From a phage: a DNA stretch of 64,000 nt. The stretch's first letter is position 1, and each line of letters begins with the position of its first letter. The notes under the pieces were generated by a model, which had not been told where the DNA came from, ran no database searches, and saw only the letters and a program-made list of their open reading frames with translations. The position numbers and the translations under genes are program-made. Of the stretch, positions 33,358 to 42,031 are shown one piece after another. Location of the stretch: sequence record PZ386972.1; one strand, written 5' to 3'.

Positions 33358-33429
33358 GCCGTCCTAGTATAATTGGTATTATCAAGCCGTAACTGGTGGA
33401 AGATGTAGGTTCGAATCCTACGGTCGGTA
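33358..33429 (+). ncRNA. tRNA-like element with canonical T-arm but no anticodon arm found by hand
   Basis: T-arm GTAGGTTCGAATCCTAC at 33405-33421; 5' segment GCCGTCC pairs to 3' GGTCGGT with one mismatch. Confidence 0.3.
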
Positions 33430-35719: not shown

Positions 35720-35797
35720 GGTTCTCAAGCTCATATGGTATGAGCACCCGGCTCATAACCGGAAGGTACGTAGGTTCGAATCCTCGGGGAGCCACCA
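35720..35797 (+). tRNA. tRNA with CAU anticodon (Met, fMet or Ile2)
   Basis: Acceptor GGTTCTC/GGGAGCC; D-arm GCTC/GAGC; anticodon loop CTCATAA; weak T-stem; CCA. Confidence 0.5.
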
Positions 35798-39029: not shown

Positions 39030-39131
39030 AATTCTGTGTAGAGTTAAGTAAACCGGTAGCCAACCAGCTATCATTGCTGACATCGAATTCAGCCACAGAT
39101 ACCATTTTCATTAATAACTGAGGAAACAAGC

Positions 39132-40038: not shown

Positions 40039-40277
40039 CAGTGCAGAACACGGAGCTAGCAATTCGGAAGTGCTGACTCATGATAGGCTGCCTATGTACT
40101 TGCGAAGCGGTCGTGTCCAAGACTCGGACTCTTGCACTGAAAACAATCAAACATTCTAGCGTGGTTGATGGGGAAACCAGCTTGGCTAGGGCAGAAGCTC
40201 GTTCGATTCGAGTGAAAGAATGGTTCTCGTAAGTCCGCACAAGTGATAACAGGTTCGAGTCCTGTCTAGAATGACAC
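40039..40277 (+). ncRNA. composite structured RNA region with closing stems and two T-arm-like hairpins, unresolved
   Basis: CAGTGCAG (40039-46) pairs CTGCACTG (40132-39); ATTCTAG (40153-59) pairs CTAGAAT (40267-73); T-arm-like hairpins at 40197-40213 and 40250-40266. Confidence 0.3.
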
Positions 40278-40422
40278 TATAAAGTTTACTTATTATGTAG
40301 GTTCCGATAGATCGGCGGGTCTATTCTGGCATTTAAGAGAGGTCTCGCAAACTTCTTTGTCAGCCGTGGGGTTGATAGCCTCCAGGTGGCCTACACAATA
40401 AGTAAATTTATTAAAAATTCAT

Positions 40423-40661: not shown

Positions 40662-40829
40662 ATGAAAGTATTTCGATTAGTAGTAAGTGACAAACGTTTA
40701 GGTAAGAATACCTCAAAATCCTTACTTGCTCATTATGGAAAAGATGAGAAAGAAGTAATGGCGGAGTTTGGGATTAATCACCCTTACTTGAAAGTTCACT
40801 CTATTAAAGAAGTATATAATGGTTACTAA
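40662..40829 (+). CDS. hypothetical small protein (55 aa), below the ORF-track cutoff
   Basis: ATG after GAGGA; between two tRNAs. Confidence 0.3.
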   Translation: MKVFRLVVSDKRLGKNTSKSLLAHYGKDEKEVMAEFGINHPYLKVHSIKEVYNGY

Positions 40830-40927: not shown

Positions 40928-40956
40928 TTGCTTGATGCTTAATTTCTTGTTATAAT
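40928..40956 (+). promoter_or_regulatory. early promoter followed by a 9-bp-stem leader hairpin
   Basis: TTGCTT 40928-40933, TATAAT 40951-40956; hairpin TGATGAGGA-TTT-TCCTCATCA at 40969-40989. Confidence 0.55.
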
Positions 40957-41194
40957 ATTTATATAAATTGATGAGGATTTCTCCTCATCATAGTTCACTA
41001 AGGTATTAGCTCGACCTAGGACTGGCTGCCAAAAAGCACGATCCCTACGATTCGGGAGAAGTTCTAGATTAGTCCACTAGATTCAGCGGCAACTGAATAG
41101 TGTATCGGGTTTGCGAGATGACGCGGTTCCTTCCGCTCGAAGCGAAGGTGCTGTAGTTACGCCGAGCTAATAGCCTTAGTAAACTAAAGAATTT

Positions 41195-41273
41195 GGGGAA
41201 TGGGTCTGCATGGAGTGGACACCTCGCTTGCACCGAGGACATCAGAACGGTTCGATTCCGTTATTCTCCACCA
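41195..41273 (+). tRNA. tRNA-Ala (anticodon UGC)
   Basis: Acceptor GGGGAAT/ATTCTCC; anticodon stem CCTCG/CGAGG with loop CTTGCAC; T-arm AACGGTTCGATTCCGTT; CCA. Confidence 0.6.
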
Positions 41274-41278
41274 AATAC

Positions 41279-41355
41279 GCGTGATTGATGGAATTGGCAT
41301 ACATACCGTCCTTAGAAGTCGGGTTTTGAGGGTTCGAATCCCTTGTCACGCACCA
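41279..41355 (+). tRNA. tRNA, anticodon uncertain (hand fold gives UAG)
   Basis: Acceptor GCGTGAT/GTCACGC; D-arm ATG/CAT; T-arm GAGGGTTCGAATCCCTT; CCA; anticodon stem has a U-U mismatch. Confidence 0.4.
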
Positions 41356-41440
41356 AATTTGATGGTCAGAGTAAATTAAACCTACTATCTCGGTTGAGCT
41401 GTTTTAATGGGTTCGAATCCCAGCGAGGCGTAACTGCCTG
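41356..41440 (+). ncRNA. orphan T-arm-like hairpin plus adjacent hairpin; possible tRNA remnant or small RNA
   Basis: TGGGTTCGAATCCCA at 41408-41422 and AGGCGTAACTGCCT at 41427-41440; no acceptor partner found. Confidence 0.25.
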
Positions 41441-41467
41441 GCGTGATAGAGGCATCATCTTATTATT

Positions 41468-41558
41468 GGAAGAGCAAATCGAATTGGCGACGAAAACCGC
41501 TTGGAAAGTGGCTGACTGGTAAAACGGCTTGAGAGTTCAAATCTCTCCTCTTCCGCCA
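41468..41558 (+). tRNA. tRNA-Ser (anticodon GGA), long variable arm
   Basis: Acceptor GGAAGAG/CTCTTCC; anticodon loop TTGGAAA; T-arm GAGAGTTCAAATCTCTC; CCA; 91 nt. Confidence 0.55.
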
Positions 41559-41570
41559 AACAATTTATAT

Positions 41571-41665
41571 GGTAGGTCAATCCAATGGCTGGCGCTGGAC
41601 TCCGACTTGAAATCGGTTGATCGTAGTGATACGGTGTAAGGGTTCGATCCCCTTACCTACCTCCA
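41571..41665 (+). tRNA. tRNA-Ser (anticodon UGA), long variable arm
   Basis: Acceptor GGTAGGT/ACCTACC; anticodon loop CTTGAAA; variable stem CGTA/TACG; T-arm AAGGGTTCGATCCCCTT; CCA; 95 nt. Confidence 0.55.
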
Positions 41666-41670
41666 AGTCT

Positions 41671-41802
41671 TGAAGTATGCCGGAATCGGTAGACGGGGCT
41701 GCCTAAAAGGTTTATAGGGAACATCCACTCCCTACAACATACCTCATAAAGCGGCTGAGATAAATGGTCTATCTCGTGAAGGTTCAAGTCCTTCTGCTTC
41801 TT
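41671..41802 (+). ncRNA. structured region with terminal T-arm (GAAGGTTCAAGTCCTTC) and internal hairpins, unresolved
   Basis: Hairpins TAGGGA...TCCCTA (41714-41734) and GAGATA...TATCTC (41757-41775); T-arm 41778-41794; no CCA. Confidence 0.25.
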
Positions 41803-42031
41803 GATACATCTATGGCTCAAAGTGTAACGGTGCTATTTGATGCTCTTAGTAAGACTTTCCCGACATGCGTTCGGGAGTAAGCTGCTAAGGCTAGAATAGA
41901 AGAGTTTCTGAGAGCCGCCACAATTGAAAATTCGTACTCGTCTTGAGCTGCGTGCAATAGGAGATAACTTGATTAGTATTCTAGAACATGCTAATTGAGG
42001 ATGGTTTCGCTAACCCTGCGAGTTTTCAATT

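What the first reader, a model, noticed from the sequence alone, without database searches (positions are those of the whole stretch)
40957..41194. ~240-nt non-coding leader with a start-site hairpin downstream of an early promoter
Promoter 40928-40956 is followed at once by a 9-bp-stem hairpin (TGATGAGGA-TTT-TCCTCATCA) that sequesters the RBS-like GAGGA seen at other promoter copies. No ORF follows. The next recognisable gene is tRNA-Ala 240 nt downstream. This is a possible small RNA or regulated leader.
Basis: seen in the sequence. Interest (0 to 1): 0.45.

Follow-up and report, generated by a model that had tools for sequence, protein, structure and literature searches.

The report
Phage T5 stable RNA gene RNA2H
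The "leader" is the already-annotated gene for RNA2H, a roughly 172-nt stable non-coding RNA of T5-like phages; its function is still unknown, and comparison across phage genera shows a conserved pseudoknotted fold that matches no Rfam family.

Summary
A T5-type early promoter (40928-40956) is followed by a 9-bp hairpin at 40969-40990; its loop is TTTC, not TTT. No ORF follows, and tRNA-Ala starts at 41195.

The interval is not an anonymous leader. It is 98% identical to rna2H ("RNA2H, stable RNA with unknown functions"), annotated behind "promoter P13b" and ahead of tRNA-Ala in the T5, BF23 and DT571/2 records. The mature RNA maps to window 41004-41175.

The fold has these parts:
- a 22-23-bp closing stem (P1);
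- an H-type pseudoknot;
- a short stem (S2) and a hairpin (P3);
- two swappable peripheral hairpins (V1, V2);
- invariant unpaired motifs.

Covariation supports this fold across Tequintavirus, Epseptimavirus, Sugarlandvirus, phage Eos, Erwinia phage KEY and Pectobacterium phage DU_PP_V. I found no Rfam match and no match in the bacterial genome searches I ran.

The annotated ends lie staggered in P1 with a 2-nt 3' overhang. This suggests RNase III excision from an RNA2H-tRNA precursor (inference). The start-site hairpin belongs to the precursor only and is absent in some lineages.

The function remains unknown. I favour a trans-acting protein-binding or decoy RNA, with low confidence. Verdict: already known, an orphan RNA, moderate-to-low interest.

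The parts
40928..40956 (+). Early promoter P13b: -35 TTGCTT (40928-33), 17-nt spacer, -10 TATAAT (40951-56). Transcription start inferred at about 40963.
   Evidence: Sequence. Member of the T5 early-promoter repeat family. The homologous stretch is annotated 'promoter P13b' in T5 and BF23. The start site is inferred by analogy with T5 PN25 (own knowledge).
40969..40990 (+). P0, the 5' start-site hairpin: 9 bp with loop UUUC. It buries the SD-like GAGGA, belongs to the precursor only, and lies outside the annotated mature RNA.
   Evidence: -12.9 kcal/mol, z = -4.7. Relatives keep the stem with A-U, G.U and G-C variants and mostly a GAAA or GAGA loop.
40992..41013 (+). P1 5' strand (closing stem).
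   Evidence: 23 pairs counted with 41163-41186; 96% of cells paired and 7 pairs with compensatory changes on the MAFFT alignment A4. 99.9% paired on A5.
41004..41175 (+). Mature RNA2H (172 nt), mapped from the T5 annotation.
   Evidence: blastn of the T5 rna2H feature: 98.3% identity over 1-172. Annotations.
41019..41024 (+). Pseudoknot 5' strand, GGACUG.
   Evidence: Pairs with 41070-41075. 5 of 7 counted pairs have compensatory changes. RNAalifold on A4 picks this helix unprompted. Seven lineage representatives tabulated.
41029..41040 (+). Conserved unpaired motif, CCAAAAAGCACG.
   Evidence: The same motif recurs in all seven lineage representatives, differing at one or two positions (T5-like, Sugarlandvirus, Eos, DU_PP_V, KEY).
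41040..41058 (+). V1, variable hairpin module: the short form in this window, 45-50 nt forms in other phages.
   Evidence: At least six unrelated sequence versions each fold as a hairpin at this position.
41063..41081 (+). S2 hairpin (UCUAG/CUAGA). Its loop (AUUAGUCCA) carries the pseudoknot 3' strand UAGUCC (41070-41075).
   Evidence: Six different stem versions all pair: UCUAG/CUAGA, UCUGAU/AUCAGA, CGG/CCG, GCGG/CCGC, UCCG/CGGA, CUGG/CCAG.
41082..41097 (+). P3 hairpin (UUCAG/CUGAA) with loop CGGCAA.
   Evidence: Five stem versions all pair. The loop is CGGCAA, CUGGUAA or CUGAUUA.
41099..41113 (+). Conserved joining region, AGUGUAUCGGGUUUG. AGUGUA is invariant apart from one sequence.
41113..41162 (+). 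V2 (P5), variable hairpin module: type A in this window. Its base GNG/CNC covaries three ways.
   Evidence: Types A and B are distributed mosaically across genera and all fold as hairpins. The base pair is C-G, U-A or A-U (pair 188/303).
41163..41185 (+). P1 3' strand, with a bulged G at 41173 (or a bulged A at 41172).
41195..41273 (+). tRNA-Ala(UGC), 9 nt after P1. It is the co-transcribed downstream gene and is followed by tRNA-Leu (41279-41355).
   Evidence: The same promoter-RNA2H-tRNA order is seen in T5, BF23, Sugarland, Eos and KEY.

Best explanation
The interval is the rna2H gene of a T5-like phage.

Shown here:
- It is 98% identical to the annotated T5 RNA2H and sits in the same place, behind promoter P13b and directly ahead of tRNA-Ala.
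- It folds into a conserved structure: a 22-23-bp closing stem P1 enclosing an H-type pseudoknot (GGACUG pairs with the loop of hairpin S2), hairpin P3, two interchangeable peripheral hairpins (V1, V2), and invariant unpaired motifs (CCAAAAAGCACG, AGUGUA).

Inferred:
- Host RNA polymerase starts at about 40963, early in infection, and makes an RNA2H-tRNA-Ala-tRNA-Leu precursor.
- The first 28 nt form a hairpin that hides the Shine-Dalgarno-like GAGGA carried by the T5 promoter cassette. This would keep ribosomes off a non-coding transcript.
- RNase III cuts both strands of P1. The annotated ends, 41004 and 41175, are offset by 2 bp, which gives a 2-nt 3' overhang. The cut would release the 172-nt RNA, discard the hairpin, and leave the tRNAs to RNase P.

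The function of the mature RNA is not known. My preferred guess is that it acts in trans as a scaffold or decoy for a host or phage protein, bound through the conserved pseudoknot core, with V1 and V2 as dispensable periphery.

Confidence by step:
- identity as rna2H, about 0.95;
- the fold, including the pseudoknot, about 0.85;
- RNase III excision, about 0.6;
- a trans-acting protein-binding or decoy role, about 0.35.
For: Identity:
- searches give the misc_RNA rna2H annotations in DT571/2, T5 st0, T5 and BF23;
- searches give 98.3% identity and map the feature to 41004-41175.

Distribution:
- 427 phage records hold the core at 72-100% identity;
- 79 Klebsiella Sugarlandvirus records hold a diverged form;
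- covariance-model hits are Sugarland at 61 bits and Eos at 81 bits with model R1, and DU_PP_V at 88.6 bits and KEY at 87.8 bits with model R2.

Structure:
- on the MAFFT alignment A4, P1, the pseudoknot and S2 are 93% paired, against 22-43% when the partner is slid, and 15 of 35 pairs show compensatory change;
- RNAalifold on A4 chooses the pseudoknot helix by itself;
- on A5, 99.8% of cells are paired and 19 of 40 pairs are compensatory;
- all helices are kept in seven lineage representatives;
- every V1 and V2 version folds as a hairpin.

Non-coding: plus 1-nt indels among near-identical relatives.

RNase III geometry:
- the annotated ends fall opposite each other in P1 with a 2-bp stagger;
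- RNAIV in the same window sits in a 21-bp stem of related sequence, with ends also placed in the stem.

Promoter and hairpin.
Against: - No transcript, end-mapping or nuclease data could be examined. The mature ends are taken from GenBank annotation, and I could not read its experimental basis.
- No paper in the held library mentions RNA2H.
- RNase III is inferred from geometry alone.
- The nested MFE of the mature 172 nt is only z = -1.8. The pseudoknot is not modelled there.
- One compensatory change in phage JN-S202001 (CCGCUAG with AGCGUA) fits a helix that competes with S2. The core may therefore switch conformation, or the model may be incomplete.
- The T5 tRNA region tolerates large deletions in the laboratory (PMC11974808), and phage FFH_1 keeps only 29% of the element. 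The RNA is therefore not essential.
- Nothing points to a specific partner.
Confidence: 0.8

Rival explanations
1. The element is a purely cis-acting processing spacer, a structured 5' external transcribed spacer. Its only job would be to provide an RNase III site and a folding context for maturation of the downstream tRNAs. On this view the "stable RNA" is a long-lived by-product with no function of its own.
For: - It always lies 1-9 nt upstream of a tRNA: tRNA-Ala in T5-like phages, Sugarland, Eos and KEY, and tRNA-Leu in DU_PP_V.
- Its ends lie in a long stem, as for RNAIV.
- The region can be deleted.
Against: - A cleavage site needs only the stem. Yet the unpaired motifs, the pseudoknot and the P3 loop are conserved across subfamilies while the stems covary.
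- Most other tRNAs in the cluster have no such element.
- The depositors list it as a stable RNA species, separately from features they mark 'putative'.
Confidence: 0.25
2. The element is a regulated leader, riboswitch or attenuator that controls transcription of tRNA-Ala and tRNA-Leu.
For: - It is a highly structured 5' region with a pseudoknot and invariant unpaired nucleotides that could form a ligand pocket.
- The competing nested helices P2 and lower P3 exist in T5-like sequences.
Against: - There is no + strand intrinsic terminator between P1 and the tRNA.
- There is no ORF or RBS to control.
- There is no Rfam aptamer match.
- The nested alternative helices are not kept in the divergent lineages.
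- The RNA is annotated as an excised stable species.
Confidence: 0.06
3. The interval encodes a small protein. Several GenBank records annotate a 'hypothetical protein' over it.
For: Automatic annotations overlap the region on one strand or the other. A 57-aa minus-strand ORF spans 41069-41242.
Against: - The + strand has 4-8 stops per frame.
- The minus-strand ORF runs into tRNA-Ala.
- One-nt indels occur among 98%-identical relatives, and V1 and V2 are replaced by segments whose lengths are not multiples of 3.
- The substitutions are compensatory in stems rather than codon-periodic.
- In KEY the annotated CDS covers both this RNA and an unannotated tRNA-Ala.
Confidence: 0.01

Closest known systems
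RNA2H (rna2H) of phages T5, BF23 and DT571/2, as annotated in AY543070, AY692264, NC_042564 and KM979355
   Same: 98.3% identity over all 172 nt. Same promoter (P13b) upstream and same tRNA-Ala and tRNA-Leu downstream. Same fold.
   Different: A few substitutions. The start-site hairpin loop is UUUC here and GAAA in T5. T5 has tRNA-Val between tRNA-Lys and P13b, and the window does not. The function is unknown in both.
Other T5 stable RNAs in the same window, especially RNAIV (40295-40397)
   Same: A non-coding stable RNA in the tRNA cluster, enclosed by a closing stem of about 21 bp. The lower part of that stem (AGUUUACU.../...AGUAAAUU) resembles P1 of RNA2H, and the annotated ends lie within the stem.
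   Different: There is no detectable homology of the cores. The covariance models hit RNAIV only weakly and on the opposite strand, through the near-palindromic stem (9-19 bits).
Phage T4 species 1 and species 2 RNAs (rnaC, rnaD) (own knowledge, not tested here)
   Same: Small stable RNAs of unknown function encoded inside a phage tRNA gene cluster and matured from tRNA-containing precursors. T4 species 1 RNA is a classical RNase III substrate. RNase III has a described role in T4 tRNA synthesis (McClain 1979, listed in the references of PMC4810235).
   Different: The phage family differs, and no shared fold is known.
RNase III processing stems of rRNA operons and phage T7 early transcripts (own knowledge)
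   Same: A long double-stranded stem formed by sequences flanking the product, cut on both strands with a 2-nt 3' overhang.
   Different: Here the excised product is a 172-nt pseudoknotted RNA of unknown function. Cleavage is inferred, not shown.
Bacterial protein-sequestering or decoy RNAs (6S RNA, CsrB, Y RNA/YrlA) and viral tRNA decoys such as T5 tRNA-Lys against PARIS (PMC11464382)
   Same: An abundant, structured, non-coding RNA. The genomic neighbourhood (the T5 tRNA region) already supplies one RNA-based counter-defence.
   Different: No Rfam match to 6S, Y RNA, tmRNA or tRNA-like families. No partner is known. The resemblance is only a functional hypothesis.

Membership tests
T5 RNA2H (rna2H) stable RNA family of Demerecviridae | Full-length sequence homology to the annotated T5 rna2H | tested here: met
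   98.3% identity over 172 of 172 nt, mapping to window 41004-41175. Alignment.
T5 RNA2H (rna2H) stable RNA family of Demerecviridae | Position: behind early promoter P13b and immediately ahead of tRNA-Ala | tested here: met
T5 RNA2H (rna2H) stable RNA family of Demerecviridae | Shared secondary structure supported by covariation | tested here: met
T5 RNA2H (rna2H) stable RNA family of Demerecviridae | Accumulates as a discrete stable RNA in infected cells | not testable with these tools
   Rests on the depositors' wording ('stable RNA with unknown functions'). No transcript data are held.
RNase III-excised RNAs | Product flanked by a double-stranded stem of about 20 bp or more | tested here: met
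   P1 has 22-23 bp with one bulge and is 96-99.9% paired across relatives.
RNase III-excised RNAs | 5' and 3' ends offset by 2 bp in the stem (2-nt 3' overhang) | tested here: met
   The annotated 5' end U41004 pairs with A41172 (or wobble-pairs with G41173). The 3' end C41175 pairs with G41002, which lies outside the mature RNA. The ends come from annotation.
RNase III-excised RNAs | Cleavage depends on RNase III (rnc) | not testable with these tools
   Needs an rnc mutant or an in vitro cleavage assay.
Riboswitch or transcription-attenuating leader | An expression platform (intrinsic terminator or RBS sequestration) ahead of the regulated gene | tested here: not met
   No + strand terminator-like site lies between 40957 and 41195. 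The downstream genes are tRNAs, with no ORF.
Riboswitch or transcription-attenuating leader | Match to a known aptamer class | tested here: not met
   No Rfam hit, even at E up to 10 for the window and up to 1 for divergent homologs.
Described RNA families in Rfam 15 (6S, Y RNA/YrlA, tmRNA, RNase P, tRNA-like, ribozymes) | Score at or above the family gathering threshold | tested here: not met
   Only tRNAs reach threshold in the window. The best sub-threshold hits in the interval score about 22 bits or less and involve only the hairpin.
Small protein-coding gene | A conserved ORF with a start codon and RBS | tested here: not met
   Frameshifting indels among close relatives.
T5 early promoters (PN25 type) | -35 TTGCTT, 17-nt spacer, -10 TATAAT, A-rich upstream block, and a conserved initial transcribed ATAAATTGATGAG | tested here: met
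   Transcription itself was not testable.

The most novel reading that the evidence does not exclude
RNA2H may be the founding member of an undescribed class of phage-encoded, pseudoknotted, trans-acting RNAs. They would be made early from the T5 tRNA island, alongside the phage tRNAs that already counter host anticodon nucleases. RNA2H would bind and neutralise a host factor, such as a defence nuclease or an RNA-binding protein. The swappable V1 and V2 hairpins would then tune host or defence specificity.
Probability: 0.15. Interest if true: 0.7.

Novelty: already known. Interest (0 to 1): 0.33.

Why it matters
As posed, the finding rediscovers a feature annotated in the T5 reference genomes, so the scan result itself is ordinary.

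What remains open is the RNA itself. The only statement about its function I found is the GenBank note ("unknown functions"). No paper in the searchable library mentions it, and Rfam has no model for it.

The comparative analysis gives three things.
- A testable fold: a closing stem, a pseudoknot, two modular arms and invariant single-stranded motifs.
- A covariance model that finds the RNA in several Demerecviridae genera: Tequintavirus, Epseptimavirus, Sugarlandvirus, Hongcheonvirus, Eos and KEY.
- A list of GenBank records where the RNA is unannotated or covered by spurious "hypothetical protein" calls.

If the RNA acts in trans, it would add a structured non-tRNA RNA to the functions of the phage tRNA island.

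Tried and rejected
- Rfam: searches at gathering and permissive thresholds, on the window and on divergent homologs, returned only tRNAs.
- Paralogs in the window: model R1 finds one copy only. The weak minus-strand hit at 40282-40409 comes from the near-palindromic closing stem of RNAIV and is not a homolog.
- Nested helix P2 (CUAGGACU/AGUUCUAG), lower P3, the small hairpins GCU/AGC and UCG/CGA: predicted from T5-like sequences alone. The first two fail in the divergent lineages. I replaced them with the pseudoknot plus S2 and with the covarying GNG/CNC base of V2.
- Host similarity: blastn against 5,426 E. coli genomes found nothing at E up to 10. A degenerate two-anchor pattern found nothing in representative genomes of 185,579 bacterial and archaeal species.
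- More diversity from IMG/VR and metagenomes: only the same lineages came back, with 23-26 loci from each of three IMG/VR scans and 9 from the metagenome scan.
- blastn from the DU_PP_V homolog finds only itself.
- Model R1 found nothing within 600 nt of tRNA-Ala in DU_PP_V or Proteus phage RP7. The DU_PP_V copy lies elsewhere, ahead of tRNA-Leu. For RP7 only 1.3 kb was searched, so absence is not shown.
- My first KEY fetch covered the wrong region, the structural genes.
- Literature: five full-text searches found nothing on RNA2H or its function. The Glukhov 2018 paper on T5 tRNA-region deletions is not held.
- CsrA-type GGA loops, tRNA D-arm or anticodon-loop mimicry by P3, and pairing of the V2-B loop with P1: considered by eye and dropped, because the features do not hold across lineages.

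Full report
**What the window is.** It carries 22 or more tRNA genes on the + strand. Around the finding it is 98-100% identical to Salmonella and Escherichia T5-like phages of the Demerecviridae. So the finding lies in the tRNA gene region of a T5-like phage.

**Checking the observation.** The sequence shows:
- -35 TTGCTT at 40928-33, a 17-nt spacer, and -10 TATAAT at 40951-56;
- a perfect 9-bp hairpin, TGATGAGGA / TTTC / TCCTCATCA, at 40969-40990.

The loop has four bases, not three. On its own the hairpin folds at -12.9 kcal/mol (z = -4.7).

The promoter belongs to a repeat family with about ten copies between 30 and 50 kb. The other copies continue ATAAATTGATGAGAGG...ATG into short ORFs. 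This copy continues into the hairpin's 3' arm, so the purine-rich GAGGA is paired and no ATG follows.

No + strand ORF of 20 codons or more lies between the hairpin and tRNA-Ala at 41195. All three + frames carry 4-8 stops. The whole interval folds much better than shuffled controls (-84.4 kcal/mol, z = -5.4).

**What it is.** The records for T5 (AY543070), the T5 st0 mutant (AY692264), BF23 (NC_042564) and DT571/2 (KM979355) annotate, in this order:
1. "promoter P13b";
2. misc_RNA rna2H, "RNA2H, stable RNA with unknown functions" (172 nt);
3. tRNA-Ala and tRNA-Leu.

The T5 rna2H feature maps to window 41004-41175 at 98.3% identity. The same mapping places the other T5 stable RNAs in the window:

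| RNA | Window coordinates |
|---|---|
| rna3 | 39032-39104 |
| rna2 | 40152-40276 |
| rnaIV | 40295-40397 |
| rna1 | 41669-41813 |
| rnaI | 41814-41920 |
| rnaIII | 41925-42030 |

The finding is therefore an already annotated gene. No Rfam family matches it. No paper in the searchable library mentions it.

**Distribution.**
- 427 phage records carry the 205-nt core at 72-100% identity.
- A covariance model built from 33 distinct T5-like sequences (R1) finds one copy in the window. It also finds diverged copies in Klebsiella phage Sugarland (61 bits) and phage Eos (81 bits), again between a T5-type promoter and tRNA-Ala.
- 79 Klebsiella phage records share the Sugarland form.
- A second model that includes these sequences (R2) finds copies in Pectobacterium phage DU_PP_V (Mccorquodalevirinae; 88.6 bits; ahead of tRNA-Leu).
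- R2 also finds a copy in Erwinia phage KEY (87.8 bits). There an annotated CDS (key_098) covers both the RNA and an unannotated tRNA-Ala.
- A degenerate two-anchor pattern has no match in representative genomes of 185,579 bacterial and archaeal species.
- blastn finds nothing in 5,426 E. coli genomes.

As far as I could search, the element is specific to T5-like phages.

**Structure.** Alignments show a nearly invariant core and two regions, V1 and V2, that are replaced wholesale by unrelated sequences of different length. Every version folds as a hairpin. V1 and V2 types are combined mosaically. For example, V2 type A occurs in T5, UTK0009 and Eos, and type B occurs in most Epseptimavirus phages and in Sugarlandvirus.

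- *P1.* The closing stem (40992-41013 with 41163-41185) has 7 pairs with changes on both sides and is 96% paired on a plain MAFFT alignment of 20 sequences.
- *Pseudoknot.* Folding T5-like sequences alone predicts a nested helix, CUAGGACU/AGUUCUAG. That helix fails in the divergent lineages. What is conserved instead is a pseudoknot: GGACUG (41019-24) pairs with UAGUCC (41070-75), which lies in the loop of hairpin S2 (UCUAG 41063-67 / CUAGA 41077-81).
- *Support for the pseudoknot.* Five of its seven pairs covary. RNAalifold on the cross-lineage alignment picks it unprompted.
- *All lineages.* In seven lineage representatives the pseudoknot, S2 (six different stem sequences) and P3 (five) all stay paired.
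- *Model-fitted alignment.* On the 47 distinct sequences aligned to the model, 99.8% of cells pair and 19 of 40 pairs show compensatory change. With slid partners, only 27-43% pair. This alignment leans towards the structure it was fitted to.
- *Unpaired motifs.* CCAAAAAGCACG (41029-40), AGUGUA (41099-104) and the P3 loop (CGGCAA, CUGGUAA or CUGAUUA) are conserved in sequence.
- *Unexplained.* One compensatory change in phage JN-S202001 supports a helix that competes with S2. The core may have an alternative conformation.

**The start-site hairpin.**
- It is kept in most Tequintavirus and Epseptimavirus relatives, with A-U, G.U, A.C and G-C states at one pair and a GAAA or GAGA loop.
- The window and two metagenome contigs carry UUUC, the exact inverse of GAAA.
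- In GRNsp8-type phages the loop is replaced by an insert of about 95 nt, while the basal UUGAUG/CAUCAA pairs remain.
- In Sugarlandvirus and Eos there is no hairpin, and the inferred start abuts P1.
- In DU_PP_V an unrelated hairpin (GGGGAG-UAAAC-CUCCCC), again with a purine-rich 5' arm, abuts P1.

The hairpin is thus a lineage-specific precursor element and lies outside the annotated mature RNA. Masking the SD-like sequence of the promoter cassette is a reasonable reading, but it is untested.

**How the RNA is probably made.**
- By analogy with the T5 promoter PN25 (own knowledge), transcription should start at about 40963.
- There is no + strand terminator before the tRNAs, and only 9 nt separate P1 from tRNA-Ala, so the RNA and the tRNAs should be co-transcribed.
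- The annotated mature 5' end (U41004) and 3' end (C41175) lie on opposite strands of P1, offset by 2 bp. That is the geometry RNase III leaves (inference).
- RNAIV, in the same window, sits in a 21-bp closing stem whose lower part resembles P1, with its annotated ends also in the stem.
- RNase III has a described role in T4 tRNA synthesis (reference list of PMC4810235).

**Function.** It is unknown.

Conservation of unpaired nucleotides and of a pseudoknot over deep divergence argues for more than a cleavage site. So I favour a trans-acting RNA that binds a protein (about 0.35).

The main rival is a purely cis-acting processing spacer (about 0.25). A riboswitch or attenuator (about 0.06) and a small ORF (about 0.01) are poorly supported.

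The T5 tRNA region can be deleted in the laboratory (PMC11974808). It also already supplies a tRNA that neutralises the PARIS defence (PMC11464382). A counter-defence or host-range role is therefore conceivable but unsupported.

**Verdict.** The feature is already known as T5 RNA2H. Its residual interest is that it is an orphan, structurally well-supported RNA family that is absent from Rfam.

Noticed in passing
window 40978-40981: The hairpin loop reads TTTC here and in two metagenome contigs (L038, L042), but GAAA or GAGA (a GNRA tetraloop) in the other relatives that carry the short hairpin. Because the stem is a perfect palindrome, this is an exact inversion of the hairpin. On the minus strand the hairpin plus ATTTATATAA scores as terminator-like.
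   Followed up: partly
L002 290-390 (Salmonella phage GRNsp8); also L006, L007, L012, L018, L045, L046: In these phages the hairpin loop is replaced by an insert of about 95 nt, between the retained basal pairs UUGAUG/CAUCAA. KEY has a leader of about 170 nt between the promoter and P1 (L062 22300-22472). The insert does not fold significantly better than shuffles (z = -1.2), and its nature is unknown.
   Followed up: partly
window 39032-39104, 40152-40276, 40295-40397, 41669-41813, 41814-41920, 41925-42030: These are homologs of six further T5 stable or tRNA-like RNAs of unknown function (rna3, rna2, rnaIV, rna1, rnaI, rnaIII), at 84-100% identity to T5. None is in Rfam at gathering threshold.
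   Followed up: partly
window 40282-40409: RNAIV lies inside a 21-bp closing stem (AAGUUUACUUAUUAUGUAGG / CCUACACAAUAAGUAAAUUU). The lower part of that stem resembles P1 of RNA2H, which is why the RNA2H models hit it weakly on the minus strand. The fold has z = -5.3. This suggests a shared processing-stem module among T5 stable RNAs.
   Followed up: partly
L048 20023-20211 (Sugarland gp149); L062 22547-22747 (KEY key_098); several T5-like records: Automatic annotations place 'hypothetical protein' CDSs over the RNA2H homolog. In KEY the CDS also covers an unannotated tRNA-Ala(UGC) at about L062 22663-22741. Most of the listed records carrying the RNA have no feature there.
   Followed up: yes
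window 41356-41668: ARAGORN and Rfam call no gene in this stretch, yet it contains T-arm-like GGTTCGAATCC-type sequences. T5 and DT571/2 annotate two tRNA-Ser genes in the corresponding place. Only a 43-nt piece of T5 tRNA-Ser1 aligns to the window (41623-41665). The T5 HNH endonuclease gene hegC gave no match in the window.
   Followed up: no
window 33358-33429 and 35720-35794: Rfam's tRNA model finds two tRNA-like genes that ARAGORN did not list.
   Followed up: no
window 41015-41020, 41063-41068, 41077-41081; L005 and L010: The RNA2H core holds three CTAG-containing palindromes (CCTAGG, TCTAGA, CTAGA). Phages UTK0009 and SE7 change the two S2 arms together (TCTGAT/ATCAGA). That keeps the pairing while removing both CTAGs.
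   Followed up: partly
V2 region of Epseptimavirus and Sugarlandvirus homologs (e.g. L002 536-545, L048 20210-20220): In V2 type B the loop UGGCUAAU is invariant across two genera, while the stem beneath it covaries (AC/GU, CC/GG, CA/UG). The loop shares GCUAAU with the P1 3' strand of T5-like phages. The significance is unknown.
   Followed up: partly
window 40662-40829: A 55-aa ORF wedged between tRNA-Met and tRNA-Lys is the homolog of T5.065 (92.9% nucleotide identity). It is one of several tiny conserved ORFs interleaved with the tRNAs.
   Followed up: no
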